64,000 bases of DNA from a virus. Shown piece after piece: positions 13,557-46,513 of the stretch. How positions within the stretch are numbered: the stretch's first letter is position 1; every line of letters starts with the position of its first letter. The notes below the pieces were generated by a model that searched no databases, was not told the origin of the DNA, and saw nothing but the letters and a program-made list of their open reading frames with translations. The position numbers and the translations under genes were made by a program. Where the stretch lies: IMG/VR virus record IMGVR_UViG_3300040811_000687; one strand, 5' to 3'.

Positions 13557-14240
13557 ATGGAAACAAACAGTCAGAAAATAAAAGAATACACAAAAAAAAA
13601 TGGTGTTGAAGTTAAGGAAAATAGTTTCTTTGATAGAAGACATAGAAGATTAAATATTGATCTTTCTCATAGATGTCCTTTAGAGTGTTTACGTTGTGGT
13701 CGTCAAATAAGTTTTTTATTTAAAGGACTAAAAGTACCAGGTAGGGATTTAACTATAGAAGAATTTGAAAAGATAACAGATCATTTTAAAAGTATATCAT
13801 TTTGTGGTCAATATTCAGACCCTATACATCACCCAAAATTTAAAGAATTATTAGAAATATCAAAAAGAAAAAACGTTAGAGTAGAGGTACATGTTGCTTC
13901 TTCACTTAAACCAGAAAAAGCATACATTGAAGCTTTTAAAGCTTACCCACAGGCAGATTGGATTTTTGGTATTGATGGTTTACCTAAAGAAAGTCACAAG
14001 TATAGAAAAAACCAAGATGGGGAAAAACTATTTAAAATAATGTTAGAATCTAAAAAACATCTTATTAAAAAACCATTATGGCAATTTATTATCTTTAGTT
14101 ATAACGAACACAATTTGAATAATGCAATGCAAATGGCCAAAGATAATGATGTTGATTTTGTATTAATAAATTCAGCTAGATGGAGTGCCGATGATGATTG
14201 GTTAATGCCAAAAACTAGGAGAGAAATGACAGATGAGTAA
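13557..14240 (+). CDS. Radical SAM enzyme (core only)
   Basis: CPLECLRC (CxxxCxxC), FCGQYSDP, FGIDGL, WQFIIFSYNEH. Confidence 0.9.
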   Translation: METNSQKIKEYTKKNGVEVKENSFFDRRHRRLNIDLSHRCPLECLRCGRQISFLFKGLKVPGRDLTIEEFEKITDHFKSISFCGQYSDPIHHPKFKELLEISKRKNVRVEVHVASSLKPEKAYIEAFKAYPQADWIFGIDGLPKESHKYRKNQDGEKLFKIMLESKKHLIKKPLWQFIIFSYNEHNLNNAMQMAKDNDVDFVLINSARWSADDDWLMPKTRREMTDE

Positions 14241-14616
14241 ACTTGATAACAGATTAGGAGGAAAAAAAAGAAGAGCTGAAGGAGATATTGAATTGGATCC
14301 TTTATGTTTTAAAGATGAGATTGCTTTTGCAGTCACTAATCAAGGTGTATTAGTACCTTGTTGTAGATTTGACGACCCAGCAACTATGGGTGATACTCAA
14401 ATGAAACCTTTAATAGAAGCAAGTAAAATTTCCGAAAATAATACAATAGATGATATTTTGAAAAAAGAAGAATGGAAACAATTTGCAGATAACTTATCAA
14501 AAAATATAGGACCTGCTGCTTGTTTAACTACATGTGCTAAAGCAAAAAAATATACACAAGTAGTAGAGTGGATAGATACAGAAAAAGGTGTAGCAACTAG
14601 TGTGGAAAAAAAGTAA
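14233..14616 (+). CDS. Stand-alone twitch/SPASM-like Fe-S domain protein
   Basis: PLC...AVTNQGVLVPCC...ACLTTC; overlaps the radical SAM stop codon. Confidence 0.75.
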   Translation: MSKLDNRLGGKKRRAEGDIELDPLCFKDEIAFAVTNQGVLVPCCRFDDPATMGDTQMKPLIEASKISENNTIDDILKKEEWKQFADNLSKNIGPAACLTTCAKAKKYTQVVEWIDTEKGVATSVEKK

Positions 14617-14672
14617 CCCACACCCAAACCAAAAAGGCTATGATGGCTAACTAAATATATAAAGGATAAATT

Positions 14673-15089
14673 ATGAACGATAAAAAAGTAGGATTTACAT
14701 GTAGTACTTTTGATTTGTTACATGCTGGCCATGTACAAATGTTGAAAGACGCCAAAGACCAATGCGATTACTTAATCGTAGGTTTACAAACAGACCCAAC
14801 TATAGATAGACCTGACACCAAAAATAAACCAATACAAACATTGGTAGAAAGAGGTATACAGTTATCAGCAGTTAAGTATGTAGATGAAGTTATTACGTAT
14901 CAAACTGAACAAGACTTGGAAGATATATTAACAATGTTTAATATATCAGTAAGAATTATGGGAGAAGAATATCAAGGTACAGACTTCACAGGTAAGGAGA
15001 TATGTGTTAAGAAACATATAAAGATAGTTTACAACAAAAGAGATCACCGTTTTTCATCAACGGATTTAAGAAAAAGAATTAAAAATTAG
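14673..15089 (+). CDS. Cytidylyltransferase (TagD/RfaE-like)
   Basis: GFTCSTFDLLHAGH (HxGH), DYLIVGLQTD, KYVDEV, FSSTDLR. Confidence 0.92.
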   Translation: MNDKKVGFTCSTFDLLHAGHVQMLKDAKDQCDYLIVGLQTDPTIDRPDTKNKPIQTLVERGIQLSAVKYVDEVITYQTEQDLEDILTMFNISVRIMGEEYQGTDFTGKEICVKKHIKIVYNKRDHRFSSTDLRKRIKN

Positions 15090-15099
15090 GAGAAAAAAT

Positions 15100-15324
15100 A
15101 TGAGTAATTTTGACAGTCACGACAAAGATCACGATCACGATAGATCGTATGAAAATGAATCTACAAGAGATACAACACCTATGGTTTCTATATCATTAAG
15201 AGAATATGATAAGTTAAAATCAAGAAGTGCTTTCATCACAGACAAAGCAACGATTGATATTATAGATAATCTTGAAAGACTTGTTAGAGCATTAAGAAAA
15301 CATATAATTAGATCAGAGATTTAA
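15100..15324 (+). CDS. Hypothetical protein
   Basis: AGGAG RBS; His/Asp-rich N-terminus. Confidence 0.6.
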   Translation: MSNFDSHDKDHDHDRSYENESTRDTTPMVSISLREYDKLKSRSAFITDKATIDIIDNLERLVRALRKHIIRSEI

Positions 15325-15585
15325 TTATCTGTGATATACGGCAAAAGTTGTCGCCATGTTCATATGACAAAATGATTGTGGTCTTTTATAGAATTGAGTA
15401 GAGTTTCCTCTATATCTATATCTAATCTTTTTTGCATTTTTTTGAGCAGATACTTCTTTAAAGTAATTTAAATATTTAATTGGTATATTTGAAGCAATAC
15501 AACTACCAACAGGTGTTAAGTGTTTTAATAATAATGGGTTAACAACCCTTTCAAATATTTTTTTTTGTCTTGTTTTATTTTTCAT
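15325..15585 (-). CDS. Hypothetical protein (putative early operon)
   Basis: Coupled to the upstream gene; IRYRYRG motif. Confidence 0.6.
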   Translation of the reverse strand: MKNKTRQKKIFERVVNPLLLKHLTPVGSCIASNIPIKYLNYFKEVSAQKNAKKIRYRYRGNSTQFYKRPQSFCHMNMATTFAVYHR

Positions 15586-15929
15586 TATACTCCTACTCCG
15601 TAATGTCTATAATCAACAATTGGCATAAAGTCATAAGCGTATTCATTATCAGGTAATGCACCCGACATTTGAACATGACAATCATTTTTCTTTCTATTAT
15701 CAAAAAAAGTTTGTAAAGTCTTCTTTAAGTTATTTGCCATTTGTTCATGTATTGAAACATTAAACTTAGCAAACAATGTACCACACATAATAGTACAATC
15801 AGTAGCACTTTCAGCTAATGCAAGTTTCATTATGTCTTTTCTTAATTGAATAGACTCGTTTTTATCATCAGCCATTTCTTGACCTTGTTGTTCTTGTAAT
15901 CTTAACTCGTTATATTTTTCTGGTGTCAT
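15585..15929 (-). CDS. Hypothetical protein (start revised to MTPEKY)
   Basis: GAGGA RBS before ATG 15929; removes the overlap with the upstream gene. Confidence 0.6.
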   Translation of the reverse strand: MTPEKYNELRLQEQQGQEMADDKNESIQLRKDIMKLALAESATDCTIMCGTLFAKFNVSIHEQMANNLKKTLQTFFDNRKKNDCHVQMSGALPDNEYAYDFMPIVDYRHYGVGV

Positions 15930-15931
15930 AA

Positions 15932-16315
15932 TTATCCTCTCAATCTTGATTGTGAATCCATATACAAAGGACCAGTCCATCTAACATGGTAATTACCGTC
16001 AAGTACATTACCTCTAGCTTTGTTTAGTGCAGGAGCATTAAAACCAGCAGCCTTTAATATGTCGCCTTTTTTAAAATGTTTAAAGTCTTCTTTTACGATA
16101 AAAGCAAATACTCCGTTTTCTTTTACAACTTTCATATACTTTTTACCTTGTGATACTTTAATCATATTGTCCCAATTGTCAATTTGTTCTTGTGAGTAAG
16201 TTGAAACATTACCATTTTTATCTGTAGTCCAAGAAATATAATCTTCTTTGGCACCGTTCATCATATTCTTAACTCCTTCATCTAAAGAAGTTGCGTTTTT
16301 AGTTACTAATGACAT
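15932..16315 (-). CDS. Conserved phage hypothetical protein
   Basis: GKKYMKVV...FAFIV...GDILKAAGFNAPALNKARGNV motif, familiar from phage early genes; GGAGG RBS. Confidence 0.7.
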   Translation of the reverse strand: MSLVTKNATSLDEGVKNMMNGAKEDYISWTTDKNGNVSTYSQEQIDNWDNMIKVSQGKKYMKVVKENGVFAFIVKEDFKHFKKGDILKAAGFNAPALNKARGNVLDGNYHVRWTGPLYMDSQSRLRG

Positions 16316-16521
16316 TATTTGTCCTCCTTGTATAAGTCTTGAGCATATAAAGCTAAGATATAAGACGCAATACCTATCAAGGCCATTGAAGCACCTTGTA
16401 AATATTTGTCTATTTCAATTGAACCTACGGCACCAACCATTGCTAAAGTACCGACTGTCGCCATTATTACCGACATGTATTCTATTATTTTTTTCATAGT
16501 GTATCCTTTTGTTTTTTTCAT
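16315..16521 (-). CDS. Small two-TM membrane protein
   Basis: Two hydrophobic helices; first gene after the sigma70 promoter. Confidence 0.6.
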   Translation of the reverse strand: MKKTKGYTMKKIIEYMSVIMATVGTLAMVGAVGSIEIDKYLQGASMALIGIASYILALYAQDLYKEDK

Positions 16522-16532
16522 ATTACTTGTCC

Positions 16533-16561
16533 ACTATACCAGATAAATACAGTAAAGTCAA
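16533..16561 (-). promoter_or_regulatory. Sigma70-type (early) promoter
   Basis: Minus strand TTGACT-17bp-TG-G-TATAGT with an upstream T-tract. Confidence 0.8.
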
Positions 16562-16579
16562 GAAAAAAAAGCGTAAAAT

Positions 16580-16759
16580 ATGAAAATAATTAAAATAATT
16601 GCAGTTTGTTCACTTTTTGTACTGGTTTCCTGTTCAAAAACTGTTGAGGATTGTAAAATTAAGCCGAATTTAGAAAAAATTAGCGAATCAGCGCTAAAAA
16701 ATAAAGAAAATTTAAGTGAAACTGAGCTAAAACATGCTCAAATGTCTTGTAAATTTTAA
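16580..16759 (+). CDS. 59-aa lipoprotein (absent from ORF track)
   Basis: MKIIKIIAVCSLFVLVSC|SK: signal peptide with LVSC lipobox. Confidence 0.6.
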   Translation: MKIIKIIAVCSLFVLVSCSKTVEDCKIKPNLEKISESALKNKENLSETELKHAQMSCKF

Positions 16760-16773
16760 TTATAAATAATATT

Positions 16774-16965
16774 ATGATAAATTCACAAATTTATTGTCAA
16801 AATTGTGGACACGAATCGCATTGTGGCGAAAATTGTTTACAAGATTACGGAGAATCACAAAAAACCGTATGTTGTACACATTGTAGTTGCGAAAAAGACA
16901 ATGATAATTGGGAAGATACTGTAAAATACGATTTAAACAATGAAGATTTATTTAATGGAGCATAA
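16774..16965 (+). CDS. Cys/His-rich small protein (metal-binding)
   Basis: CQNCGHESHCGENC...CCTHCSC; TATAAATA at 16761-16768. Confidence 0.65.
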   Translation: MINSQIYCQNCGHESHCGENCLQDYGESQKTVCCTHCSCEKDNDNWEDTVKYDLNNEDLFNGA

Positions 16966-16967
16966 AA

Positions 16968-17225
16968 ATGGCAAAAATGAGAATATTTAAGTTTTGGAAT
17001 GAAGCAGGTGATGAAAAAGAGAAAGAAGCGATGAGTTTGAAGAAGGCAATAATGTCAGTTCAAGGCGATTTTAAAGATAAATGGATAGGAGCTGAATATA
17101 TTAGTAAAAAAGGTAAAAATATTAGCACCTCTATACAAATACCAGTTGGTAGAAAAATTAGAGAAGCGGCCAGAGTAGAAAAAGCAAGAGCGGCTGCTAA
17201 AGCTTTAAAAGAAATGGGGAGATAA
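16968..17225 (+). CDS. Hypothetical protein
   Basis: GGAG RBS; in operon with PAAR. Confidence 0.6.
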   Translation: MAKMRIFKFWNEAGDEKEKEAMSLKKAIMSVQGDFKDKWIGAEYISKKGKNISTSIQIPVGRKIREAARVEKARAAAKALKEMGR

Positions 17226-17525
17226 ATGCCGTCAATTTGTAGGAAAGGCGATAGTTTAAGTACCGGTCATATATGTACTGGTACAACAACACTAGATACG
17301 CCTGGCCAAAGTACAGTTCGGGCAAATAGTATATTAATCGCAAGAGTGGGTGACCCAACAGTAAGTCACCCTTTCCCACCGGCACCTCCTTGTGCCCCTC
17401 ACGTTGCAAACGTTAATGTAGGCAGTTCAACAGTTTCAGTTTGTGGTAGTCCAATAGCTAGAATAGGGGATAGTACAGACGCTGGAGCAATGACTTCAGG
17501 TTCTTCAAATATCTTTGCTGGTTAA
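17226..17525 (+). CDS. PAAR-repeat spike tip protein (gp5.4-like)
   Basis: ICRKGD, IARVGD and IARIGD repeats; His/Cys metal ligands; GSSNIFAG terminus. Confidence 0.92.
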   Translation: MPSICRKGDSLSTGHICTGTTTLDTPGQSTVRANSILIARVGDPTVSHPFPPAPPCAPHVANVNVGSSTVSVCGSPIARIGDSTDAGAMTSGSSNIFAG

Positions 17526-17543
17526 CGTATAAATATATACGTA

Positions 17544-17969
17544 ATGCCAAATTTTGATAGTAGTAACACTAACAACAGTAAACGAGCAAATAGAATCTAT
17601 AAAGACTTGGATTTGAATTTTGGTCGTAATGTAGTAACAGGTGATGTAAATAAGTTAACCGATGTAGAGGCCGTTAAAAGAAGTGTTAGAAATTTAATTA
17701 ATACTTCTCATTTTGAGAGACCTTTTCACCCAGAAATTGGCAGTGATGTTAGAAGAATGTTATTTGAACCAATGACACCTCTTACAGCACTTAACTTACA
17801 AAGAAAAGTTGGCGAAGTTCTAAATAATTTTGAACCTAGAATAAAATTAGTACAAATTTTAGCTAGTCCAAATTTAGATAGAAATAGTTATCATTTAACA
17901 ATTATGTTCTATGTTATAGGTTCATCGGAGCCAATAACAGTAGAAACATTTTTAGAAAGATTAAGATAA
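17544..17969 (+). CDS. gp25: Baseplate wedge gp25
   Basis: YKDLDLNF, AVKRSVRNLI, ERPFHPEIGS, FEPRI; TATAAATA at 17528-17535. Confidence 0.95.
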   Translation: MPNFDSSNTNNSKRANRIYKDLDLNFGRNVVTGDVNKLTDVEAVKRSVRNLINTSHFERPFHPEIGSDVRRMLFEPMTPLTALNLQRKVGEVLNNFEPRIKLVQILASPNLDRNSYHLTIMFYVIGSSEPITVETFLERLR

Positions 17970-17970
17970 A

Positions 17971-32840: not shown

Positions 32841-33366
32841 TATGAAAATAAATGTAGCTAGTGTAGAACATAAAGAAATAGGATTTGGTGAAGAATTACT
32901 AAAAAATCATTTTGCAGGAGCTCACTTTACAAACAACGAAAGAACATGGATAGAAGTTTTAACTAATGAAAATGGAGATAGTCTTTCTTCACATCACATT
33001 GAATACGATTTAGATCATCCTAATTGTCAAGCATTAATGAAATTTACTACGTTAGATGATATACATGAAGCTACGTATATTAAAGTGAATAAGGAAAGAA
33101 AAGAATTTGAAGAATTTGCAATTCAAATTGCTAAAAGAGACGGTCTTGTACAAACAGACGATACTTCTCCAAGTAGAATACTTGATTATATTTTTAGTGA
33201 TAAAGAAGCAGATGAAGATGAAATGTTTGCTTTAAAAATTGCTTTATTTGAAGTAGACAAGATAAAAGATTCTAAAAATCTTGACGGTAAAAAAGCATTA
33301 AGAAAAAGTAAGACTAGAATAGAATTACTTAAAGGTGCTATTGATCTTTATAGTGAGGCAGAATAA
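32830..33366 (+). CDS. Hypothetical protein
   Basis: AAGGAG RBS; helical C-terminus (FALKIALFE). Confidence 0.65.
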   Translation: MSTDMKINVASVEHKEIGFGEELLKNHFAGAHFTNNERTWIEVLTNENGDSLSSHHIEYDLDHPNCQALMKFTTLDDIHEATYIKVNKERKEFEEFAIQIAKRDGLVQTDDTSPSRILDYIFSDKEADEDEMFALKIALFEVDKIKDSKNLDGKKALRKSKTRIELLKGAIDLYSEAE

Positions 33367-33925
33367 AATCTGACCACCAACCTTGCCAACCTGGTTCTAA
33401 TAGGTGGTTCATTTGACCTAGAGTGCAAATACTAAATTCTTTTGGTGGTATTTCATATATATGGTTTTTAATAGAAGGACAAACTTTATCATAGTTTTTA
33501 TAATCTATTTCTCTATAGTAAAATTCATCACTACCTCTATCATATTTTTCTAGGTAAACATCTTCGTCTTCTTTAAATTTATCCCATATATGAGATACAT
33601 CGCCTGTCCAAGAAACGATAGTTGAGTTAAGTGGTGTATGAGCTTCTTCTCTCCACCACAAATCATTCAATAAAGTAAAGTCTTTACGAAATAAATCTGG
33701 TAATTCTTTCCATATAATAACATCTAAATCAAAGTATAGATTTTCTCCGTCTCTAAATTTATCATACATTTGAAACTTGTTATACCAATTACCATAAATG
33801 TCATTTTCAATAACTTCAAAACTATCATAAGATATTCCAGAATGGAAATCTATCATATACTTTAAATTATCAACATGCCATTGAGTAAATTTGTTACCAA
33901 ACCTACAAACTATTATTCTTCTCAT
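33338..33925 (-). CDS. GT-A glycosyltransferase-like protein
   Basis: VCRFGNKF...WYNKFQM...LYFDLDVII (DxD)...NSTIVSW. Confidence 0.75.
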   Translation of the reverse strand: MRRIIVCRFGNKFTQWHVDNLKYMIDFHSGISYDSFEVIENDIYGNWYNKFQMYDKFRDGENLYFDLDVIIWKELPDLFRKDFTLLNDLWWREEAHTPLNSTIVSWTGDVSHIWDKFKEDEDVYLEKYDRGSDEFYYREIDYKNYDKVCPSIKNHIYEIPPKEFSICTLGQMNHLLEPGWQGWWSDFILPHYKDQ

Positions 33926-34848
33926 ATTACAACTTTATTTTCTTCAGGATTACTATTTGCTGGACCAGTACACATAGTTAAACATCTTTTAGGTTTATCT
34001 TTTGTTGGTCTTTTAATTATATTAAAAAATTTAATCCATTCTTTACTATTAATTATATCTTCAACTGTATCATTATTATCCATATGAAGACTATCATTAA
34101 ATAAATCTTTTATTATTGGTTCGTTGTATCTGGTATTTAACCAACAACAAGGAAGTATTTTTCCTTTATTATTCCATGCCAAATCTCTTTTTGTTTTTAA
34201 ACATTTAGGTTCAAAAACTTTTTTTTCTTCAGGTTTAGTTATTTTATATACTATTTTACCTAACTTTTCTTCTTTCACTTCTTTTATGCCGTTATCTGTT
34301 CTAGATGAATAAATTAATAAAAGAGGTATATTATGCAATTTTGCCAATTGTTCAACTTCTTTTATATCATTTTTATTATAATCAAATACAATACATTGCC
34401 ATTGTACTTTAAGTCCTTGCTTAACTGCTTTTAACATAATATTAAAAAGATATTCTCCTTTTTGATGTATTCTATACTTATGGCTATCTTTTGGAAGTCC
34501 ATCAATACCAAAAACCCAGGTTGTTTTTTCTGAAGAAGCTTTAAATGCTTCATCATACCATTTTTCAGGTCTTTGTGAAGCTGCTGTAGAAATTTCTGTT
34601 TTAATATCTTTCTTCTTACACAACTTTAACATTTCTATAAAGTTTGGATTAAAGATAGGGTCTGAAAATGTTCCACAAAAACTAATTTTTTTGAAATAAT
34701 CAGTTAATTTGTCAAGTTGTTCTAATGTTAAATCTTTTCCTGGAATACTTTGGCCTTCTTGTTTATATTGTTGTCTAGCACAAGCAGCACATTCTAATGT
34801 ACACTTATTTCCAGAGTCAATATTAATAGCTCTATCTCTAAAATTCAT
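33922..34848 (-). CDS. Radical SAM enzyme with fused twitch/SPASM-like domain
   Basis: CTLECAAC, FCGTFSDP, FGIDGL; C-terminal PKC...GKILPCCW...RCLTMC. Confidence 0.9.
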   Translation of the reverse strand: MNFRDRAINIDSGNKCTLECAACARQQYKQEGQSIPGKDLTLEQLDKLTDYFKKISFCGTFSDPIFNPNFIEMLKLCKKKDIKTEISTAASQRPEKWYDEAFKASSEKTTWVFGIDGLPKDSHKYRIHQKGEYLFNIMLKAVKQGLKVQWQCIVFDYNKNDIKEVEQLAKLHNIPLLLIYSSRTDNGIKEVKEEKLGKIVYKITKPEEKKVFEPKCLKTKRDLAWNNKGKILPCCWLNTRYNEPIIKDLFNDSLHMDNNDTVEDIINSKEWIKFFNIIKRPTKDKPKRCLTMCTGPANSNPEENKVVI

Positions 34849-34862: not shown

Positions 34863-35756
34863 TTATTTAATTTCTGTAACTTTTATATTTCTTTTATATG
34901 CTGAAGAATTTATTTTTGTATCAGCAGTTTCGGGAATAATATGTTCAACACCATATGGATCAATCATTGTTTTATTTTCATTACCTTTTATATTAACTAG
35001 TTTTGCCTTTCTCATTTTCATTCCTGTACGAGGATGAACTTCTTGACCGGTTAAAGTAATTCTACTTCCATTACCTGCACCTATTAAAAGTTCAGTATCA
35101 TCTTGTTCCCAACGTGGTCGGTTTTCATTTGGATAACCTACACCTAAACCATAGGCTACTTTCTTAATACCTTTATCTATATCATCTAAAATTCCTAATT
35201 TTTTTCCCCAAAAATCATTTCCGTTTACATCATTATGACTTTTATTTGGTCCAGTAACATATCCCATTTTAGCTGCAGCTCTCATAGTCAACCCTAAAGA
35301 TATGCCAATACTACAATAAGAATTTATCCATCTTTCATGGTGTGAATTTGGTTTTAAAGAACCATCAGCGTTACAGTTTAATTGTGTGTCAGGTTCTTTA
35401 GCTACCCATATAATGTAAATACTAGCATTTGCTTGTGTGTTTCTCCATGTTGATGGTGGATTTCTTCTATGAGTATTACCCCAAGTATATCTAGATATTT
35501 CTTGAATTACTTTTCTATCCCATGTATAATATAAATCAAAATGTGATTCATATTGTTTGCTAGGGGTATTTTGAGCAATATACAATAATTCTGCTACATG
35601 TCTTTCTTTATTTTCAATTTTATCATCTTCAAATTTTTTATAATCCCAGTTTCTTTGACATTTAGTAATTTGTTCTAATATTTTATGTTCTTCATCCCAA
35701 TCATAAGTCTCATTCATGTATTTTCTCATACCTTTTTCGTATCTGTTTATTGCCAT
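34863..35756 (-). CDS. Nitroreductase-family protein (divergent)
   Basis: CQRNWD, AQNTPSKQ, SIGISLG...AAAKMGYVTG, GLGVGYP. Confidence 0.7.
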   Translation of the reverse strand: MAINRYEKGMRKYMNETYDWDEEHKILEQITKCQRNWDYKKFEDDKIENKERHVAELLYIAQNTPSKQYESHFDLYYTWDRKVIQEISRYTWGNTHRRNPPSTWRNTQANASIYIIWVAKEPDTQLNCNADGSLKPNSHHERWINSYCSIGISLGLTMRAAAKMGYVTGPNKSHNDVNGNDFWGKKLGILDDIDKGIKKVAYGLGVGYPNENRPRWEQDDTELLIGAGNGSRITLTGQEVHPRTGMKMRKAKLVNIKGNENKTMIDPYGVEHIIPETADTKINSSAYKRNIKVTEIK

Positions 35757-38059: not shown

Positions 38060-38749
38060 TTATAACCAAGTAACTATTTCTTCTATTTCAGGTTTAATAT
38101 CTTCACTAACACTTAAAGGTGTTAATGTTTGTCTTCTAGTTTTTTCAGCATAACCAATACTCATCATAGAAATTGGCATACGTGTACACCATTTTAATCC
38201 AGCGTCTTGCCATTGTTTTTGATCTCTAATGAAACATGAGTTATATGATATATCAATGTCTTTTTCTAACAAATAATTTGTTAAATTTTGCATAAAGAGT
38301 CCTACTTCTACAGCAAAAACAGAAACAAGCCTATCTGCCTTTTCCTCAATCATTTGTTCAGGATGATGTCCTTCAGCTATTTTTTTTTCATAAAATTTGT
38401 TTGCTTTTTTACATACTCTAGCAGTAATAACTACCAAATAAGGATTTAATTTTATATGTTCGTAGAAAGGATTTACTGCCCCACCTTGTGTATGATTTTG
38501 ATATCCTGCTTTAACGGCATCGTCTTCGGCTCTAATATGATCCTTACGTACCATACTATAAACAGCGTCTTTGTCTTTCTGTTTTTCAGGACCTAAAACA
38601 AATACCTCATATGGATTAAAATTATTTTTAGATGGTGATGTTTTCCATGCCTTCCATAAAGCGTCCTTGACCTCATCTAACGGAGGTATTTTTTCACTAT
38701 ACTTTCTAACGTGTCTTCTTTTTGTTTCTAATAATTCAAATGTGTTCAT
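38060..38749 (-). CDS. Nitroreductase-family flavoprotein
   Basis: RRHVRKYSEK, AWKTSPSKNNFNPYEVFV, VEVGLF, SIGY. Confidence 0.8.
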   Translation of the reverse strand: MNTFELLETKRRHVRKYSEKIPPLDEVKDALWKAWKTSPSKNNFNPYEVFVLGPEKQKDKDAVYSMVRKDHIRAEDDAVKAGYQNHTQGGAVNPFYEHIKLNPYLVVITARVCKKANKFYEKKIAEGHHPEQMIEEKADRLVSVFAVEVGLFMQNLTNYLLEKDIDISYNSCFIRDQKQWQDAGLKWCTRMPISMMSIGYAEKTRRQTLTPLSVSEDIKPEIEEIVTWL

Positions 38750-40301: not shown

Positions 40302-40670
40302 TTATAATCCCATTAAATCTCTTATTTCGGGATCAATCATATCCCTAGACCACGTAGGTGTCATTGTAATTCTAACTTTGCATTTAAGTCCTGGTATACT
40401 TTCAACGGCTTGTCTTACTCCGTTAACTATTTCATCTACGGCAGGACAAAAAGCAGACGTTAAACTCATTAATACAAATACATATCTTTCAGAGGTAACT
40501 TTAACATCATATATAAGTCCGAGTGTGTATATATCTGTAGAAATTTCAGGATCATAACAAGTTTTAAGTTTCTCTGTAATTTTATTAATAAACTCTAGAC
40601 GCATTTCTTGATCGTCTTTAATATCTGATAAAGTAGCGTTTACTTGTGGATCAATTGATGGTTCATTCAT
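40302..40670 (-). CDS. DUF59/SufT-like Fe-S assembly protein
   Basis: YDPEISTDIYTLGLIYDV, MSLTSAFCP, PTWSRDMI. Confidence 0.9.
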   Translation of the reverse strand: MNEPSIDPQVNATLSDIKDDQEMRLEFINKITEKLKTCYDPEISTDIYTLGLIYDVKVTSERYVFVLMSLTSAFCPAVDEIVNGVRQAVESIPGLKCKVRITMTPTWSRDMIDPEIRDLMGL

Positions 40671-40673
40671 AAT

Positions 40674-40988
40674 TTATTTTTTACTTTCTATTGTACAAAC
40701 TCTTTTACAAGGTTTAGGTGCCTTATCATAATCAATCAAACTATTTGGTAAAGTTTTTTTAAACCACTCTTTATTTAGTATATTTTTTAAAGAGTCATTT
40801 TTTATGTTATATTCTTCTTTTTTAGATAGATAGTCTTTTATAATAGGATGTGATCTACCATCAGTTTCTTTTTTGTTTTCATAATCTATAAAATGTAATT
40901 TTAAAAAACAACATTGAAACACTTGTCCGTCAGGCTGTATTAAACACCTACTACTTTCTTTCCATTTACAAATAATACTTTTAGCCAT
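40674..40988 (-). CDS. Stand-alone twitch/SPASM-like domain protein
   Basis: ICKW...IQPDGQVFQCCF...PCKRVC. Confidence 0.75.
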   Translation of the reverse strand: MAKSIICKWKESSRCLIQPDGQVFQCCFLKLHFIDYENKKETDGRSHPIIKDYLSKKEEYNIKNDSLKNILNKEWFKKTLPNSLIDYDKAPKPCKRVCTIESKK

Positions 40989-41679
40989 TTTCTTTATTTT
41001 TTGGATATTTGTCTACTGCTATCTGTACTGTTGTATCCGTAGCAGCTTCTAAATATTCATCTTCTCCTTTTTCATTGACAAAATGCCATTTTGATTTACC
41101 ATCAAATCTATCTGATAAACAAAATTCATGGTTATGTGATCCCCATTTCTTTGCTAAATCTAATATATCTTTTTTATAATCCTGGTTATGTTTAAATATA
41201 ATTGTTTGAGATAACGGTATTGCTTTTGTTTTTGACAAAGCATACATATTATTTAAAGATTTTTTTAATGAAGCACCACGTCTATATTTGGTGTGCATTT
41301 CTTCATTAATACCATCTATATCAAAAACGATTGCTAATCTTTTATCACAATAATTACCTATTTCTTCATAAAACTTTTCTGACCTAATACTACCATTTGT
41401 TGTTATGGTTACTTTAGATTTTATTGAATTGTCTATTATGTAATATATAATCTTTTTTATATCTTTGGCCATCAAAGGATCTCCCCATAAACCACAAAAA
41501 CTATATTCTTCCATGTCATCTAAATCATTTATTGGAAAAGCAGTTTGAAACTGTTCTAATGACCAAGTATCTAGAGGAAGTAATTCGTGAGTTTTTAATC
41601 CGTTAGGATCAGTTCTTCTACATTGTGGGCATTTAATGTTACAAAGATTAGTAACAGAAATATCAACCGTTTTCATCAT
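40981..41679 (-). CDS. Radical SAM enzyme (core only)
   Basis: CNIKCPQC, FCGLWGDP, TTNGS, FDIDG, IIFKHNQ. Confidence 0.9.
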   Translation of the reverse strand: MMKTVDISVTNLCNIKCPQCRRTDPNGLKTHELLPLDTWSLEQFQTAFPINDLDDMEEYSFCGLWGDPLMAKDIKKIIYYIIDNSIKSKVTITTNGSIRSEKFYEEIGNYCDKRLAIVFDIDGINEEMHTKYRRGASLKKSLNNMYALSKTKAIPLSQTIIFKHNQDYKKDILDLAKKWGSHNHEFCLSDRFDGKSKWHFVNEKGEDEYLEAATDTTVQIAVDKYPKNKENG

Positions 41680-42515
41680 AATTTTAATATATTACTATAC
41701 TTTTCAATAGGAAAATGTCCTTTCGGTTGTACATATTCTTTACATGTTACACAATACTTCTCATATTTGAATAACTGGAAGTTCATCATCTTATCAATGT
41801 TTTCTTTAGTCATAGGAAAAGACCTAGACAATTCGGTGTTATTTGCAAATTTTTTACTACAGTGTACTATATGTTTTTTTTCAAAATCTATAACAGGTAC
41901 CATAGGAAAAGCAGCACACATTTTACGATCTATTTCAGCCGCCTGTGTGTGTACTTCTTCTACATCACCTTTAGATGGTGTTCTACCGTTAAATGCTTTG
42001 AACATAGTATTTTTATGTTCTAATTGTTTTTTAAATTCTGGATAGTTAGCTATATACTTAAAGTAATTAGGCGTTTTAAGTACTACATTATAATTATTCA
42101 TATCATTAGGTGCTAGATAATCGTAGTTACCTAATTTTTTTATTTTATCTGGATAAAAATCCAGTGTTAAGTGTTCTACGTATAATATTTCAGGATCTTC
42201 TAATATTTCAGGATATCTTTTTCTTATAAAAGAATTAGATAAAACTTGAGGAATAAAATTAGGATATTCTTTTACCATTGCAATTACTTCACGAAGGTTT
42301 TTAATTAAACCTGGTTCACCACCAAGTAAACATATTCTAACTTTATATTCTTTTAACGCTTCTAAGGTTGATCTTAAAAAATCTAAATCTACTGTCAAGT
42401 TTCTCATTTCTAGAGTATAACTTGTACAATAATGACAATCTTTATTACAAGACATAGATAAAAAGAAATCTATCGCTAAATAATTTTTTTGTGCGTATTC
42501 TAGATCAAATTTCAT
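41676..42515 (-). CDS. Radical SAM enzyme (divergent)
   Basis: CNKDCHYC, LLGGEP; C-terminal Cys (MCAA...HCSK...YCVTC). Confidence 0.85.
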   Translation of the reverse strand: MKFDLEYAQKNYLAIDFFLSMSCNKDCHYCTSYTLEMRNLTVDLDFLRSTLEALKEYKVRICLLGGEPGLIKNLREVIAMVKEYPNFIPQVLSNSFIRKRYPEILEDPEILYVEHLTLDFYPDKIKKLGNYDYLAPNDMNNYNVVLKTPNYFKYIANYPEFKKQLEHKNTMFKAFNGRTPSKGDVEEVHTQAAEIDRKMCAAFPMVPVIDFEKKHIVHCSKKFANNTELSRSFPMTKENIDKMMNFQLFKYEKYCVTCKEYVQPKGHFPIEKYSNILKL

Positions 42516-43294
42516 ATAATTTTATATATTGAGAGTCTTTGTATAATATCATCTGCTATAAATTTGTGTCCTTTTTCGTTAGGGTGTTTATCTAAAGTAG
42601 ATACCATTCTATCTGTTATATAACCGTTTTTATACAATTTGTGCATAACGTCTAACATACTAAATTGAGTAAAATTAAGTTTATCTTGAGGTATATTATC
42701 AGTTAAAAAATTTTTTATCTTATATTTATATTTTGCAATACATCTTTTTATTTCTGTTTCATCTAATTCACGACTTCTTATTGCTTTATATGGTAGTATC
42801 GTATCGTCTTTTGTCAATTTAGGATTAATTAATATATCTCGTTCAGTAGGCTTTAATCCTTCAAACATACTTTCATAAATAGCTCCCAACATAAAATGGC
42901 AATAAGGTAAATTAAATCTTTCACATAGTATTTGAAAGCTCATAAATTGTCGCATTGATTTTTTTACACAATTTAATAAATCCATAGATTTGTGGACTCT
43001 GTTGGATCTCCAACGACCAAACCATCCTTCTTGATAATCTTCTCTATGAGATTGTGTCCAAGCTGCTATAACTAATCCTATTTCTTCTTTTGGTGTGTTT
43101 AATATTTCATCTTGTAGAGTAGAATATATAAATTCATTACCTTGACCACCTTTACCTAAACAAACTAGTTCCATACCTAAATGTTTTGCAAGATGTTCGG
43201 GCCATTTTGGCCATGAAAAGTCCCATGTAGGATGGCACACTGATTCAAAATCTAAATCTGTACAACTATCTCCACTAACTATTAATTTTTTCAT
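42512..43294 (-). CDS. SGNH/GDSL-like hydrolase or acyltransferase
   Basis: VSGDSCT, WPEHLA, GKGGQGN, DKHPNEKGH. Confidence 0.7.
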   Translation of the reverse strand: MKKLIVSGDSCTDLDFESVCHPTWDFSWPKWPEHLAKHLGMELVCLGKGGQGNEFIYSTLQDEILNTPKEEIGLVIAAWTQSHREDYQEGWFGRWRSNRVHKSMDLLNCVKKSMRQFMSFQILCERFNLPYCHFMLGAIYESMFEGLKPTERDILINPKLTKDDTILPYKAIRSRELDETEIKRCIAKYKYKIKNFLTDNIPQDKLNFTQFSMLDVMHKLYKNGYITDRMVSTLDKHPNEKGHKFIADDIIQRLSIYKII

Positions 43295-44078
43295 ATAAAA
43301 ACTCCATCATTTTAATTTGTCCTTTTGCATTTGGATGACTGTCGTAATCTGATATTCTTAAATTTCTGACCGTTTCAAGACCTTCTTGTAAAGAATTACT
43401 TAGCTGTAGACTTTCTTCTATCGTAGTTTTATGTTCAAGACAATAACCATTTAGTTCATTTAGAGCTGGCCAACCTATAAAATTATTTATATCAATATGT
43501 TTCTCAAAATCCATAACCATATTTTCTAAAAATTCTTGATCTTCTTTTTTATTTCCAGGATATTTTATTCTAGGCATTTCCTCTGCAGGCTTTGATTGTT
43601 TCATATGGCTAATAATTTCATCATCATTGGGCCACGATCCTTCTAACCAACTCCAAAATAAAGGTATCATTTGAAAGTGTAAGTATTTTAAATTCCATCG
43701 TTGACAGACATTTTGATAACTTAAATAGTACATTAATGATCTTTTTGTCCAACCAAAAATATCACCATCTGAATTAGGAACTTTAACTTCCCATTTTAAT
43801 CTTCGTCCCTCTTGCCAAGTATATCTTTGTGCTTGTGACCAACCTGTTATAACTAATCCTATTCTTTCTTTATCTGTATTAGCTATTGTTTCAAGTACAG
43901 ATTCATAAATATAATCATTTCCATAACCAGATTTTGCTACATTGATACATTTCATATCTAGTTTTTCTGCTAACAACTCTGGCCATTTTGGCCAAGATGT
44001 ATCTATTTCAGGATGTATATGACTCTTATAATTTTTATCTGTAAAACTATCACCACCAGCTATTAATATTTTTTTCAT
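43275..44078 (-). CDS. SGNH/GDSL-like hydrolase or acyltransferase (paralogue)
   Basis: AGGDSFT, WPELLA, AKSGYGN, DSHPNAKG. Confidence 0.7.
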   Translation of the reverse strand: MKKILIAGGDSFTDKNYKSHIHPEIDTSWPKWPELLAEKLDMKCINVAKSGYGNDYIYESVLETIANTDKERIGLVITGWSQAQRYTWQEGRRLKWEVKVPNSDGDIFGWTKRSLMYYLSYQNVCQRWNLKYLHFQMIPLFWSWLEGSWPNDDEIISHMKQSKPAEEMPRIKYPGNKKEDQEFLENMVMDFEKHIDINNFIGWPALNELNGYCLEHKTTIEESLQLSNSLQEGLETVRNLRISDYDSHPNAKGQIKMMEFLYEKINS

Positions 44079-44377
44079 ATTTTACTCCAGAATAATTTAT
44101 TAAATGCTATTTTCATTTTTTGTTTAGGTCCTTCTTTAAAGTTTAATGGACCGTAGTCATACTCTGGTGTTATATAAGTTTTTTCAACTATATATTCATA
44201 AACCGGTTCATTGTACTCATTAATTAAACTCTCATCAAATATATCACTGGTGCCTAATGCTCTTTTTATCATTTGACAGGTCTTAATAAGATTTTGATCA
44301 GTTATAGCAACAGGATTACCATTACTATCAATGTAGCTGATTTGATCTAAAGTTTGATTTGCTATTATTTCTATCAC
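44075..44377 (-). CDS. Hypothetical protein
   Basis: Translationally coupled within the operon. Confidence 0.55.
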   Translation of the reverse strand: MIEIIANQTLDQISYIDSNGNPVAITDQNLIKTCQMIKRALGTSDIFDESLINEYNEPVYEYIVEKTYITPEYDYGPLNFKEGPKQKMKIAFNKLFWSKI

Positions 44378-45426
44378 AGTGAGGCTAATATTGTATTACA
44401 TGTGTTATTTATTTCTTCATCTGTTAAAAAAGGATCAATTGGTAATGTTAAAATTGTATCACTGATATGTTTACAATTAATACAATCATCGCTTCTATGT
44501 GATATGTTTTTATACATAGGGCGTTCAGATATAGGTTTTTCATAGTGTACATTGGCATTTAATCTCTTTTTAACTCTGTTTCTTGTTTCTTTGTCTTCAA
44601 ATCTTACAATATATTTATGATACGTATGATTGACACCATTTGAGGTTGATTGTATAATTATGTCGTCCTTTAGTTGTTCATCATATTTTTTTGCTATTAT
44701 TTGTTTAGCCTCAACATATTGATCTAGTTTTTTTAATCTATAATCAATAAACTTTGCATTAAAGAATAACATTTTAGAGTTGTATCCTAGTATCTCATGG
44801 TTACCATGTTTTCTTAGCTTAATACACATATCAGCATAGTCTTTGTTATCTGTCAATACCACACCACCTCCGGCGATCCCACCTATCGTTTTGTTCGCAT
44901 TAAAACTTATTGTACTTAATTCTCCTAGAGTACCTGCTTTAACACCGTTAAGACTAGAACCTATGGCCTGAGCTGCGTCTTCTATAAATGATATGTTTTT
45001 TTCTTTACAAAATTTTAATATCTCTGTTATATCTGACATATTACCAAATAAATGTGGATAGACAATTGCTTTTACTTTGTCTGAATACATACGTTTGATA
45101 CTGTCAAGTGATATATGATAAGTTTCTTTATCTATATCGCAAAATACAGGAGTTGCACCTACCATAGATATACAAGACGCTGTTGATATCCACGAAAAGT
45201 TGGTTGTCAATACTTCATCGCCTGGTTTTATATTTAAACATTTTAAAGAAAACATTAAAGCGTCTGTACCGTTTTGACAAGCAACAGCATATTTTCTTCC
45301 TATTGTATCTGTAATTGTTTTTTCTAAAAACTCTATATTTTGTTCTTGTTTTTCTTGCATACACTCATCAAAAAGTTTAAGATATTCTTCTTTGTTTAGT
45401 GCATAATCTTTATTCCATGAATCCAT
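44374..45426 (-). CDS. DegT/DnrJ/EryC1/StrS PLP sugar aminotransferase
   Basis: NGTDAL, PGDEV, GATPVFCD, IEDAAQAIG, SFNANK (PLP lysine). Confidence 0.95.
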   Translation of the reverse strand: MDSWNKDYALNKEEYLKLFDECMQEKQEQNIEFLEKTITDTIGRKYAVACQNGTDALMFSLKCLNIKPGDEVLTTNFSWISTASCISMVGATPVFCDIDKETYHISLDSIKRMYSDKVKAIVYPHLFGNMSDITEILKFCKEKNISFIEDAAQAIGSSLNGVKAGTLGELSTISFNANKTIGGIAGGGVVLTDNKDYADMCIKLRKHGNHEILGYNSKMLFFNAKFIDYRLKKLDQYVEAKQIIAKKYDEQLKDDIIIQSTSNGVNHTYHKYIVRFEDKETRNRVKKRLNANVHYEKPISERPMYKNISHRSDDCINCKHISDTILTLPIDPFLTDEEINNTCNTILASL

Positions 45427-45845
45427 TATTTTATTTCCTCTACTACTTTTTTACCTTCAGCTGAAAAGTGAGTTTCTATTTTTATTTTATCTTCTTTTTC
45501 TCTTACTTTACAGTGATGTATACAAACTGATTGTACTTTTTTTAAACTGTCTTCATCTCCTATATCTCTAGCATTAATTAAATCATTTTCAAACTCAACC
45601 CATTCTTTTGTTTCAAGTATTTCATTTATACTATTATAGTCTTCAAGTTTACTTACATCATACAAAGGTTTAAATTCTTTTGAATTTATTATATTTTTTT
45701 CGTCACACCAACAACATGGTAATAAATAACCTCTATTATTAACTGCCATAGGCATAACATGTTTTCTACCATGCCATTCGTAATTTCCTTGTCTATCTTT
45801 ATCCGGTAAACAGAGAGGACTTAATTTAATTCTTTGTTTTGCCAT
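45426..45845 (-). CDS. Stand-alone twitch/SPASM-like domain protein
   Basis: PLC...AVNNRGYLLPCCW...VCIHHC. Confidence 0.75.
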   Translation of the reverse strand: MAKQRIKLSPLCLPDKDRQGNYEWHGRKHVMPMAVNNRGYLLPCCWCDEKNIINSKEFKPLYDVSKLEDYNSINEILETKEWVEFENDLINARDIGDEDSLKKVQSVCIHHCKVREKEDKIKIETHFSAEGKKVVEEIK

Positions 45846-46513
45846 TTGTAATTTCCATCTTTATCTTTTTCAGTTTGTTTTGTTAATAGTGTTTTAATTC
45901 CGGAAGAACCTGTTGGTCTTAAAGGATCTGGTTTACCATTATCATCCCTCCATCTAGAAGATTGAACCAATATAAATTCAAGTCCGTTGTCCGAAGCCAT
46001 TTTTTTGGCTTCTTCTATATTATTTTCATTGTAATTAAATATTATGTATTGCCATTGTGGTGTGGTATTTAAATGTTGTTTTGCTATTTTCATTATCTCA
46101 AACATCTTTTCTCCGTCTTGATTTTTTCTATACTTATGACTATCTTTCGGTAAGCCGTCACAGGCAAATACCCACCTTGCATTTGGATTTGCTTTAAATG
46201 ATTTAATAAACCATGATATAGGTTTAGCCGTGGCTGCGCTGTGAACTGTAGCTCCAATATTTTTTTTATTAAATAGTTCTAGTATTTCATTAAATCTAGG
46301 GTGATGTACAGGATCCGATAATTGTCCACAAAAGCCAACTGATTTAAAATGATCTGTTATCATATCTATTTCATGCAATGTTAGATCACGCCCATGTGGT
46401 ATTAAGCCTTTATTTGTAAAGGCCGTTTGTCTTTGACAATTAGGACATTCTAAAGGACATCTATGAGATAAATCCAAATTCAGTGCGTGTAATCTTTTTT
46501 TAAAATATGACAT
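45821..46513 (-). CDS. Radical SAM enzyme (core only), close paralogue of 13557..14240
   Basis: LNLDLSHRCPLECPNCQRQ, FCGQLSDP, DGLPKDSHKYRKNQDGEK. Confidence 0.9.
   Translation of the reverse strand: MSYFKKRLHALNLDLSHRCPLECPNCQRQTAFTNKGLIPHGRDLTLHEIDMITDHFKSVGFCGQLSDPVHHPRFNEILELFNKKNIGATVHSAATAKPISWFIKSFKANPNARWVFACDGLPKDSHKYRKNQDGEKMFEIMKIAKQHLNTTPQWQYIIFNYNENNIEEAKKMASDNGLEFILVQSSRWRDDNGKPDPLRPTGSSGIKTLLTKQTEKDKDGNYKWQNKELN

What the first reader, a model, noticed from the sequence alone, without database searches (positions are those of the whole stretch)
13557..46513. Radical SAM family with its twitch/SPASM domain encoded as a separate gene three times and fused once
Three core-only radical SAM genes (13557, 40981, 45821) are each followed by an overlapping 104-139 aa ORF with C...G.(L/V).(P/Q)CC...CxxxC (14233, 40674, 45426). 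Paralogue 33922..34848 has the same motif fused at its C-terminus, a within-genome Rosetta stone. The 13557 and 45821 cores share long near-identical blocks (DLSHRCPLEC, DGLPKxSHKYRKNQDGEK). Auxiliary-cluster domains are normally in cis, so this suggests two-subunit enzymes with swappable subunits. Repeating three times with in-frame ATGs argues against sequencing frameshifts.
Basis: partly seen in the sequence, partly recalled or inferred. Interest (0 to 1): 0.7.

Follow-up and report, generated by a model that had tools for sequence, protein, structure and literature searches.

The report
Phage radical SAM enzymes, split twitch subunit
A T4-like phage of the ocean bacterium SAR11 encodes three radical SAM enzymes whose second iron-sulfur domain, normally part of the same protein, is a separate small gene. 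A fourth copy is still fused, and the split is real and common in marine phages, but what the enzymes modify is unknown.

Summary
Three radical SAM cores (227, 232 and 230 aa) are each followed by an overlapping 127-, 104- or 139-aa ORF that carries the motif C-x12-G-x4-CC…C-x3-C. Two of the three small ORFs pass Pfam's SPASM cut-off. Paralogue 33922-34848 has the same domain fused at its C-terminus.

The split is not a sequencing error or a frameshift signal:
- The independent isolate Mosig has an orthologous split pair.
- 88 other phage loci hold 109 core→small pairs, with junctions of -56 to +2 nt in both frames.
- Two lineages have the order small→core.
- Relatives show the small domain free, fused C-terminally, fused N-terminally, or fused to the downstream glycosyltransferase-like gene.

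AlphaFold2 models the fused copy as a twitch-type radical SAM enzyme (pLDDT 89; BlsE, SuiB, MoaA at Z 17-18). The only disordered stretch is where the other copies are cut.

Core and small subunit diverge together (Mantel r 0.87), so "swappable subunits" is not supported here.

Five cysteines suffice for one auxiliary cluster, so "twitch" fits better than full SPASM. The substrate is unknown; the gene context suggests sugar tailoring.

This scan noted the same architecture earlier in other marine phage genomes. I found no publication describing it.

The parts
13557..14240 (+). Radical SAM core 1 (227 aa, CPLECLRC; no auxiliary domain)
   Evidence: PF04055 at E 1e-6, 29.4 bits against a 29.5 cut-off. 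54% identical to core 3. It sits in an all-split clade of the core tree.
14233..14616 (+). Small subunit 1 (127 aa), a twitch-like domain with C25-x12-G38-x4-C43C44…C97-x3-C101
   Evidence: PF13186 SPASM at 21.8 bits, above the 21.5 cut-off. It matches the N-terminal twitch part of NF033640 at E 0.0016. The overlap with core 1 is 8 nt, and AGGAGA lies 10 nt upstream of the ATG.
34300..34848 (-). Fused paralogue, radical SAM core part (residues 1-183)
   Evidence: PF04055 at 34.1 bits. AF2 pLDDT is above 90 over this part.
34231..34299 (-). Fused paralogue, disordered linker (residues 184-206). This is where the split genes are cut.
   Evidence: It is the only stretch of the AF2 model with pLDDT below 50. 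The ends of the split cores and the starts of the small genes align here.
33922..34230 (-). Fused paralogue, twitch-like domain (residues 207-308; C216, G229, C234, C235, C289, C293)
   Evidence: PF13186 at residues 216-290. These residues are invariant in 14 relatives that carry the domain. The model aligns to BlsE over residues 2-305 at Z 18.0.
40981..41679 (-). Radical SAM core 2 (232 aa, CNIKCPQC), from a different family than cores 1 and 3
   Evidence: PF04055 at 34.0 bits. It is 26% identical to core 1. Relatives at 57% identity or more are all 206-248 aa and core-only, whereas those at 31-51% identity are often 330-373 aa with PF13186.
40674..40988 (-). Small subunit 2 (104 aa), a twitch-like domain
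   Evidence: PF13186 at 29.3 bits. It aligns end to end with the last ~100 residues of the fused relatives P0375 and P0377, at E 9e-13 and 8e-12.
45821..46513 (-). Radical SAM core 3 (230 aa, CPLECPNC)
   Evidence: PF04055 at E 4.5e-5. Its orthologue in phage Mosig is Mosig_00084, which is also split.
45426..45845 (-). Small subunit 3 (139 aa), a twitch-like domain with a 14-aa insert between the first Cys and the Gly
   Evidence: It aligns with the other small domains and keeps all invariant Cys, Gly and Trp residues. Its Mosig orthologue, Mosig_00085, is annotated as hypothetical.
13231..13539 (+). A-type Fe-S carrier (HesB/IscA-like), directly upstream of pair 1
   Evidence: PF01521 at E 7e-17.
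40302..40670 (-). FeS_assembly_P (DUF59-type) protein, directly downstream of pair 2
   Evidence: PF01883 at E 2.7e-13. The same arrangement occurs in L005-L007.
33338..33925 (-). Glycosyltransferase-like gene X, downstream of the fused paralogue. In relatives the twitch domain is fused to this gene instead of to the core.
   Evidence: phrog_1962 glycosyltransferase at E 7e-5. P0124 and P0125 are twitch domain plus X-like domain. They follow a 222-aa core that is 54% identical to the fused paralogue.

Best explanation
These are genuine two-gene radical SAM enzymes.

Proposed mechanism:
- The ~200-aa core binds the SAM-cleaving [4Fe-4S] cluster through CX3CX2C.
- The 104-139-aa product of the next gene is the twitch-type auxiliary domain, with five conserved Cys, enough for one [4Fe-4S] cluster.
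- The small protein is made as a separate polypeptide from an overlapping, translationally coupled start.
- It docks on the open side of the core barrel, as the same domain does in cis in the fused paralogue and in BtrN, BlsE and MoaA.
- There it completes the active site and/or carries electrons.

The cut falls in a disordered linker. That explains why the domain tolerates being free, fused C-terminally, fused N-terminally, or fused to the neighbouring glycosyltransferase-like protein in related phages.

The enzymes sit in the phage's sugar-tailoring island, so they most likely modify a nucleotide sugar or glycan. The island holds an epimerase/dehydratase, a DegT aminotransferase, a carbamoyltransferase, glycosyltransferases and a cytidylyltransferase, plus two Fe-S carrier or assembly proteins.

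Shown: the genes, their homology, the conservation of the split, the range of architectures, the model of the fused form, and co-divergence of the partners.

Inferred: physical assembly of the two proteins, cluster binding, and the substrate.
For: Homology of the small ORFs to the auxiliary domain:
- Pfam SPASM hits.
- Alignment to the fused paralogue's C-terminus, with invariant Cys, Gly and Trp residues.

The split is conserved:
- Mosig_00084/85 is a split pair with an 8-nt overlap.
- Other loci hold 109 core>small pairs, with overlaps from -56 to +2 nt in both frame offsets.
- Two lineages have the order small>core, which no frameshift could join into the usual protein.
- 187 stand-alone small relatives exist, and 108 of the 120 listed keep all five Cys.

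Architectures among the 150 best cluster representatives:
- 66 core-only, 39 C-fused and 9 N-fused.
- The N-fused cluster has 75 members from several sources.
- An N-fused gene lies in a phage contig beside a split pair.
- A twitch-glycosyltransferase-like fusion lies at the position orthologous to the fused paralogue.

Structure:
- The AF2 model of the fused copy has pLDDT 89 and pTM 0.87, with only residues 184-206 disordered.
- VIA-align gives SuiB Z 18.3, BlsE Z 18.0 over residues 2-305, MoaA 17.2 and BtrN 15.0. Foldseek ranks BlsE first at E 9.5e-11.
- The AF2 model of an N-fused relative has pTM 0.83, again with a disordered linker.

Other:
- Partners co-diverge at r 0.865.
- Pair 2 has its own fused relatives.
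- Sugar and Fe-S genes lie in the neighbourhood.
Against: - No direct evidence that the two proteins bind each other or an Fe-S cluster. No complex prediction could be run, and I could not read model coordinates to measure Cys geometry.
- Small 3 misses the Pfam SPASM threshold, and its spacing from the first Cys to the Gly is 26 residues instead of 12.
- Cores 1 and 3 score at or below the PF04055 gathering cut-off (29.4 and 24.1 bits against 29.5).
- 'Core-only' representatives from the 50% library lack genomic context, so some may be truncated gene calls or may lack a partner.
- The sugar-substrate assignment rests only on gene neighbourhood and on structural neighbours that also include peptide maturases (SuiB, anSME, SkfB).
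Confidence: 0.8

Rival explanations
1. The splits are sequencing or assembly frameshifts, or decaying pseudogenes of normally fused genes.
For: Each small ORF is in a different frame from its core and overlaps it. Fused relatives exist.
Against: The same split occurs in the independently sequenced isolate Mosig and in 109 pairs from metagenomes of many sources. Split pairs range from about 2% to over 80% sequence difference, yet the Cys, Gly and Trp residues of the small domain stay invariant. Every small ORF has its own ATG. The small>core order cannot come from a frameshift.
Confidence: 0.02
2. Programmed ribosomal frameshifting at the overlap yields a single fused polypeptide, so the enzyme is effectively in cis.
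For: The overlaps are short and A-rich. Junction 3 needs a -1 shift, the common type.
Against: Junctions 1 and 2 would need a +1 shift. I saw no canonical X XXY YYZ slippery site in the overlaps (by inspection). Across loci the overlap varies from -56 to +2 nt with both frame offsets, so no junction element is conserved. The -1 and +2 junctions and the reversed order leave no room for a shift. An AGGAGA lies 10 nt upstream of the small 1 start.
Confidence: 0.04
3. The small Cys-rich proteins are not docking domains. They are either substrates (RiPP-like precursors such as SCIFF) or free ferredoxin-like electron donors for the cores.
For: They are small Cys-rich ORFs next to radical SAM genes, as in RiPP loci. 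Structural neighbours of the fused model include peptide maturases.
Against: They are homologous over their whole length to a folded domain that is covalently part of the enzyme in 39 C-fused and 9 N-fused relatives. That domain is modelled at high confidence (pLDDT mostly about 90 or more over residues 207-290), and the whole model superposes on twitch/SPASM enzymes. There is no leader/core organisation and no repeats. Conservation covers Gly and Trp as well as Cys.
Confidence: 0.06
4. One reading: the small subunits are interchangeable between the paralogous cores (mix-and-match two-subunit enzymes).
For: The window holds three pairs. In other phages one core is followed by two tandem small paralogues (L061). 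The domain has been re-attached in several ways during evolution.
Against: Core and small distances correlate at r 0.865, with 0 of 2000 permutations as high, and nearest neighbours match or nearly tie. Small subunits within the window are only 22-33% identical. Pair 2 belongs to another family. Each small gene is translationally coupled to its own core.
Confidence: 0.1

Closest known systems
Twitch-domain radical SAM enzymes acting on sugars or nucleotides: BlsE (PDB 7vob), BtrN (4m7t), MoaA (1tv7, 2fb2), DesII (8hzv), SpeY (7wzv)
   Same: The AF2 model of the fused paralogue superposes over its whole length, auxiliary domain included: BlsE Z 18.0 over residues 2-305, MoaA 17.2, DesII 16.1, BtrN 15.0. 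Foldseek ranks BlsE first. There are enough Cys for one auxiliary cluster. The genes sit in a sugar-pathway neighbourhood.
   Different: In three of the four copies the auxiliary domain is a separate polypeptide. Sequence identity to these structures is only 8-15%. FCGQxSDP stands where GGEP is usual. The cluster content and the substrate are untested.
SPASM-domain radical SAM maturases (anSME 4k39, SuiB 5v1q, PqqE 6c8v; Pfam PF13186, TIGR04085)
   Same: Pfam SPASM hits for small 1, small 2 and the fused copy. The CX9-15GX4C half-motif is present (C-x12-G-x4-C). Structural Z scores are 16-18.
   Different: The CX2CX5CX3C block is reduced to CX3C, and there is no seventh Cys, so two auxiliary clusters cannot be fully ligated. 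No peptide substrate or RRE domain is evident.
NCBIfam NF033640, N_Twi_rSAM (twitch domain N-terminal to the radical SAM core)
   Same: The small ORFs match the N-terminal twitch part of the model, and the cores match its later part. Nine relatives of the window's cores have this N-terminal arrangement.
   Different: All scores are far below the 170-bit cut-off: 15-39 bits for the window's proteins and at most 52 for N-fused relatives. These proteins are not members.
Accessory domains of radical SAM enzymes known to occur either free or fused: PqqD/PqqE and MftB/MftC (RRE domain), CofG/CofH versus FbiC (from my own knowledge, not tested here)
   Same: The same evolutionary pattern: one functional unit that is encoded as one gene in some lineages and as two in others.
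   Different: Those cases involve a peptide-binding domain or a second complete radical SAM core. They do not involve the Fe-S auxiliary (twitch/SPASM) domain, which is regarded as an integral C-terminal part of the enzyme.

Membership tests
Radical SAM superfamily (PF04055) | CX3CX2C motif near the N-terminus that ligates the SAM-binding [4Fe-4S] cluster | tested here: met
   CPLECLRC, CNIKCPQC, CPLECPNC and CTLECAAC. These Cys are present in 151-153 of 154 family cores.
Radical SAM superfamily (PF04055) | Profile match and partial TIM-barrel fold | tested here: met
   PF04055 at E 4e-8 to 4.5e-5. Core 2 and the fused copy are above the gathering score, core 1 is 0.1 bit below it and core 3 is below it. 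The AF2 model aligns to many radical SAM structures at Z 14-18.
SPASM domain (PF13186 / TIGR04085) | Seven-Cys motif CX9-15GX4C…CX2CX5CX3C…C that binds two auxiliary [4Fe-4S] clusters | tested here: not met
   Only C-x12-G-x4-CC and C-x3-C are conserved, which gives five Cys. The Pfam model still matches small 1 and small 2 above its cut-off, so the proteins are homologous to SPASM but truncated.
Twitch domain (truncated SPASM with one auxiliary cluster, as in BtrN, MoaA, SkfB, BlsE) | Abridged SPASM fold (beta-hairpin plus helix) next to the core, with 3-4 Cys ligands for a single cluster | tested here: met
   The AF2 model has strands at residues 223-225 and 230-232, followed by helices. The model superposes on BlsE, BtrN, MoaA and SkfB over the full length. 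Five Cys are conserved.
Twitch domain | Actually binds an auxiliary Fe-S cluster | not testable with these tools
   This needs Fe/S quantification, EPR or a crystal structure.
NF033640 N_Twi_rSAM | Whole-protein score of at least 170 bits | tested here: not met
   15.4-39.2 bits for the window's proteins. N-fused relatives reach at most 52.3 bits.
TIGR04317 tungsten-cofactor oxidoreductase radical SAM maturase (best NCBIfam hit of cores 1 and 3 and of the fused copy) | Whole-protein score of at least 380 bits | tested here: not met
   29.7-50.4 bits.
BlsE, cytosylglucuronate decarboxylase (TIGR04466) | Whole-protein score of at least 400 bits | tested here: not met
   Only core 2 hits, at 23.7 bits. 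The resemblance is structural.

The most novel reading that the evidence does not exclude
The twitch module is an autonomous, portable Fe-S subunit. Marine phages have repeatedly cut it off and re-attached it: free, N-terminal, C-terminal, or fused to the neighbouring glycosyltransferase-like enzyme. In some phages it is duplicated behind a single core. On this reading it acts as a docking and electron-transfer adaptor that couples the radical SAM core to partner enzymes, or that retunes substrate choice. That would make it a natural split-enzyme system with no described counterpart among radical SAM enzymes.
Probability: 0.25. Interest if true: 0.75.

Novelty: new variant of a known kind. Interest (0 to 1): 0.6.

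Why it matters
Auxiliary-cluster (SPASM/twitch) domains are treated as integral C-terminal parts of radical SAM enzymes. Their clusters are hard to study because they sit beside the SAM cluster in one polypeptide.

Why a natural split form is useful:
- Each cluster could be expressed, reconstituted and examined by spectroscopy separately.
- Fused, permuted and re-fused relatives are available as controls.
- It would show whether the domain is only structural or acts as an electron-transfer partner.

It also corrects annotation. The small genes are 'hypothetical' in the one isolate genome I could inspect (Mosig). They match no PHROG family, while their cores are labelled 'molybdenum cofactor biosynthesis enzyme'.

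It also flags an abundant, uncharacterised radical chemistry in the sugar island of SAR11 phages. These are among the most numerous viruses in the ocean.

Tried and rejected
- The search for related loci with the small-domain alignment failed because no block was conserved enough. I used the core alignment instead.
- The window's own assembly is not held. The nearest record, G001, is a 19-kb fragment with one small-domain match, so it was of little use.
- A profile search of the small domain against PDB sequences found nothing meaningful, with best E 0.88. The link to solved structures therefore rests on the fused model.
- Literature searches for a separately encoded SPASM or twitch domain found no precedent. 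The pelagimyophage genomics paper PMC7029224 mentions radical SAM cassettes in the host-recognition cluster but not the split. Absence from this library is not proof of absence.
- I inspected the three overlaps for slippery heptamers and saw none.
- The scan of 185,579 species genomes gave only 6 loci, all on short MAG contigs of scattered taxonomy and probably mis-binned phage. One shares its contig length and coordinates with an IMG/VR contig already fetched (L094 and L075, 7487 nt). This scan finds close relatives only, so cellular members further away are not excluded.
- The count of architecture changes comes from a 'quick' tree. It shows that changes were repeated, but the number is not precise. 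Starred branches force at least 9 changes for the split label, and parsimony gives about 30.

Full report
**What the window is**

The flanks carry T4-type genes. Megablast finds gp32, baseplate and related genes of Pelagibacter phage Mosig EXVC030M and of Prochlorococcus myophages. G+C is 29-38%. The window is therefore from a T4-like myophage of the SAR11 type. Its own record is withheld from the collections, and its assembly is not held.

**Check of the observation**

- Each core (227, 232 and 230 aa) has CX3CX2C and hits PF04055.
- The small ORFs 14233-14616 and 40674-40988 hit PF13186 SPASM above the gathering cut-off.
- The 308-aa paralogue 33922-34848 has both domains.
- The third small ORF, 45426-45845, has no Pfam hit. 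It aligns with the others, sharing C25, G38, C43, C44, W81, C97 and C101 in small-1 numbering.
- Cores 1 and 3 are 54% identical, the fused copy is 45% identical to core 1, and core 2 is only 26% identical.
- The junctions are 8-nt overlaps (ATGAGTAA and ATGGCTAA, small frame +1) and a 25-nt overlap (small frame +2).

**Is the split real?**

Yes, for six reasons.
1. The independently isolated phage Mosig has the orthologous pair Mosig_00084/85 in the same gene order, with an 8-nt overlap. The genes are annotated 'molybdenum cofactor biosynthesis enzyme' and 'hypothetical protein'.
2. A profile of the small domain finds 187 distinct stand-alone proteins of 57-244 aa in marine metagenomes. Of the 120 listed, 108 keep all five Cys, 117 keep the Gly and 119 keep the Trp.
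3. I scanned IMG/VR with the core alignment, which gave 406 confirmed stretches, of which 79 loci were kept. I then scored all ORFs of 88 loci with my own core and small HMMs. This gave 109 core→small pairs, 4 small→core pairs from two distinct lineages, and no fused gene other than the window's own.
4. The overlaps range from -56 to +2 nt with both frame offsets. No junction element is conserved, which argues against programmed frameshifting. I also saw no slippery heptamer in the window's three overlaps.
5. In L008 and L069 the small gene precedes its core. No frameshift could join those into the usual protein.
6. GenBank phage records other than Mosig have no match to the small proteins, and PHROGs has no family for them.

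**Range of architectures**

A profile of the cores was searched against 1.84 billion cluster representatives. It gave 3500 hits at E<=1e-3 and 167 at E<=1e-30. I classed the best 150 with my HMMs:

| Architecture | Count |
|---|---|
| Core-only | 66 |
| Small domain fused C-terminally | 39 |
| Small domain fused N-terminally | 9 |
| Fragments | 29 |
| Other extensions | 7 |

- One N-fused cluster has 75 members of 329-376 aa from NCBI, ENA, JGI and Tara.
- One N-fused gene lies in a phage contig with Mre11/Rad50-like genes and a peptide deformylase, immediately after a split pair.

A fourth arrangement turned up in the search for longer relatives of the small domain.
- P0124 and P0125 have the small domain at the N-terminus of a ~270-aa domain.
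- That domain resembles the window's gene 33338-33925 (E 0.002), which matches a PHROG glycosyltransferase family.
- In L092 this gene follows a 222-aa core that is 54% identical to the N-terminal part of the window's fused paralogue. An epimerase gene lies nearby, as in the window.
- So at one orthologous position the window has [core-twitch][X], and a relative has [core][twitch-X].

On a quick maximum-likelihood tree of 154 cores the three states need about 30 changes, and starred branches force at least 9 for the split label.
- The window's cores 1 and 3 lie in a clade of 35 or more rows with no fused member.
- The fused paralogue lies in a mixed clade.
- The tree is 'quick', and core-only leaves from the library lack genomic context. 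I therefore take 'repeated change' as shown and the exact number as rough.

**Pair 2 is an independent case**

- Its close relatives (57% identity or more) are all 206-248 aa and core-only.
- Relatives at 31-51% identity are often 330-373 aa and carry PF13186 plus PF04055.
- Small 2 aligns end to end with the last ~100 residues of two of those fused relatives, at E 9e-13 and 8e-12.

**Structure**

*The fused paralogue.* AlphaFold2, run with a 67-row alignment, gave mean pLDDT 89.0 and pTM 0.87.
- The only stretch below pLDDT 50 is residues 184-206. This is the linker between the core and the Cys-rich domain, and it is where the split genes end and begin.
- Foldseek ranks BlsE (7vob) first at E 9.5e-11.
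- VIA-align gives the scores below, with alignments running through the C-terminal domain.

| Structure | Z |
|---|---|
| SuiB | 18.3 |
| BlsE (residues 2-305) | 18.0 |
| MoaA | 17.2 |
| SkfB | 16.7 |
| anSME | 16.4 |
| PqqE | 16.3 |
| DesII | 16.1 |
| BtrN | 15.0 |

*An N-fused relative.* P0249 models with pLDDT 82.8 and pTM 0.83, again as two folded parts joined by a disordered linker at residues 92-136. I could not superpose the two models or read their coordinates. The claim that the domain docks on the same face in both forms is therefore inferred.

**SPASM or twitch?**

The SPASM signature is CX9-15GX4C, then CX2CX5CX3C, then a last C; this is established knowledge. Here only C-x12-G-x4-CC and C-x3-C are conserved. 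Five Cys cannot fully ligate two clusters, but they suffice for one. A further Cys in the core motif FCG is present in 131 of 154 cores. The domain is best called twitch-like. All NCBIfam hits are far below their cut-offs, including NF033640 (N-terminal twitch family) and TIGR04317. The proteins belong to no curated subfamily.

**Swappable subunits?**

For 43 non-redundant split pairs the matrices of core and small-subunit distances correlate at r = 0.865, with 0 of 2000 permutations as high.
- In 26 of the 43 pairs the nearest core and the nearest small subunit come from the same foreign pair.
- In the other 17 the difference is a near tie.
- The partners therefore descend together, which does not support mixing between paralogues.
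- One observation leans the other way. In L061 and its relatives a single core is followed by two tandem small paralogues. Alternative partners may exist in some phages, though not in this window.

**Context and likely role**

Pair 1 lies directly after an A-type Fe-S carrier (PF01521) and before a cytidylyltransferase. Pair 2 lies directly before a FeS_assembly_P protein (PF01883). Around pairs 2 and 3 and the fused copy lie these genes:
- an NAD-dependent epimerase/dehydratase;
- a DegT aminotransferase;
- a carbamoyltransferase;
- a GT8-like transferase and a PHROG-type glycosyltransferase;
- a methyltransferase;
- a nitroreductase;
- a GDSL-like hydrolase (weak Pfam hit, below the cut-off) and an unannotated paralogue of it;
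- one more radical SAM gene without this domain.

PMC7029224 describes this region of pelagimyophages as a large 'host recognition cluster' with glycosyltransferases, and it notes radical SAM cassettes as variable content. The best structural neighbours include sugar and nucleoside enzymes (BlsE, DesII, BtrN). I therefore think tailoring of a nucleotide sugar or glycan is the most likely job, at roughly 40-50%. Peptide or protein modification is not excluded.

**Prior knowledge**

Four literature searches found no description of a separately encoded SPASM or twitch domain. Earlier notes of this scan on other marine phage genomes describe the same split and reached the same reading. I read them after my own tests, and they did not change my conclusions.

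**Verdict**

Its 'swappable' clause is unsupported. This is a new variant of a known kind. It is of moderate to high interest for radical SAM enzymology and for the annotation of marine phages.

Noticed in passing
window 45772-45803 and 45840-45871: A 32-nt direct repeat (84% identical, spacing 68 nt) straddles junction 3. One copy encodes the tail of core 3 (DKDGNYKWQ). The other encodes a 14-aa insert in small 3 (DKDRQGNYEWH) between the first Cys and the Gly. This insert widens the spacing from C-x12-G to C-x26-G and probably explains why Pfam SPASM misses small 3.
   Followed up: partly
window 13231-13539 and 40302-40670: The phage carries its own A-type Fe-S carrier (PF01521) and a FeS_assembly_P/DUF59 protein (PF01883). 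Each lies directly beside a split radical SAM pair, which suggests the phage supplies cluster delivery for these enzymes.
   Followed up: partly
L092 2839-3507 and 3501-4592 (also P0124, P0125): In a related phage the twitch domain is detached from the core and fused to the N-terminus of the downstream glycosyltransferase-like gene. That gene is the homologue of window 33338-33925. This points to a core-twitch-transferase complex.
   Followed up: partly
L061 2447-3978 (also L063, L079): One radical SAM core is followed by two tandem small twitch-like paralogues of 149 and 150 aa, both with the full Cys motif.
   Followed up: no
L008 4001-5025 and L069 609-1651: Split pairs in reversed order, with the small gene first and the core second (4-nt and 1-nt overlaps). 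They match the domain order of the N-fused relatives.
   Followed up: yes
window 41676-42515: A fifth radical SAM gene (279 aa, CNKDCHYC) lies directly upstream of pair 2. It lacks this twitch domain but has C-terminal CxxC and other Cys residues. It is conserved next to the carbamoyltransferase in Mosig (Mosig_00088) and in many contigs. Its function is unknown.
   Followed up: no
L094-L099 (genome contigs): The only hits in 185,579 species genomes lie on 3-20 kb contigs of MAGs assigned to Planctomycetota, Rhodobiaceae, Pseudobdellovibrionaceae, Gammaproteobacteria, Rhodobacteraceae and Woesearchaeota. These are most likely phage contigs binned by mistake.
   Followed up: no
window 38060-38749 (also 12572-13234 and 34863-35756): A nitroreductase-family gene (PF00881) lies in the island. 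They may be flavin-dependent electron donors for the radical SAM enzymes.
   Followed up: no
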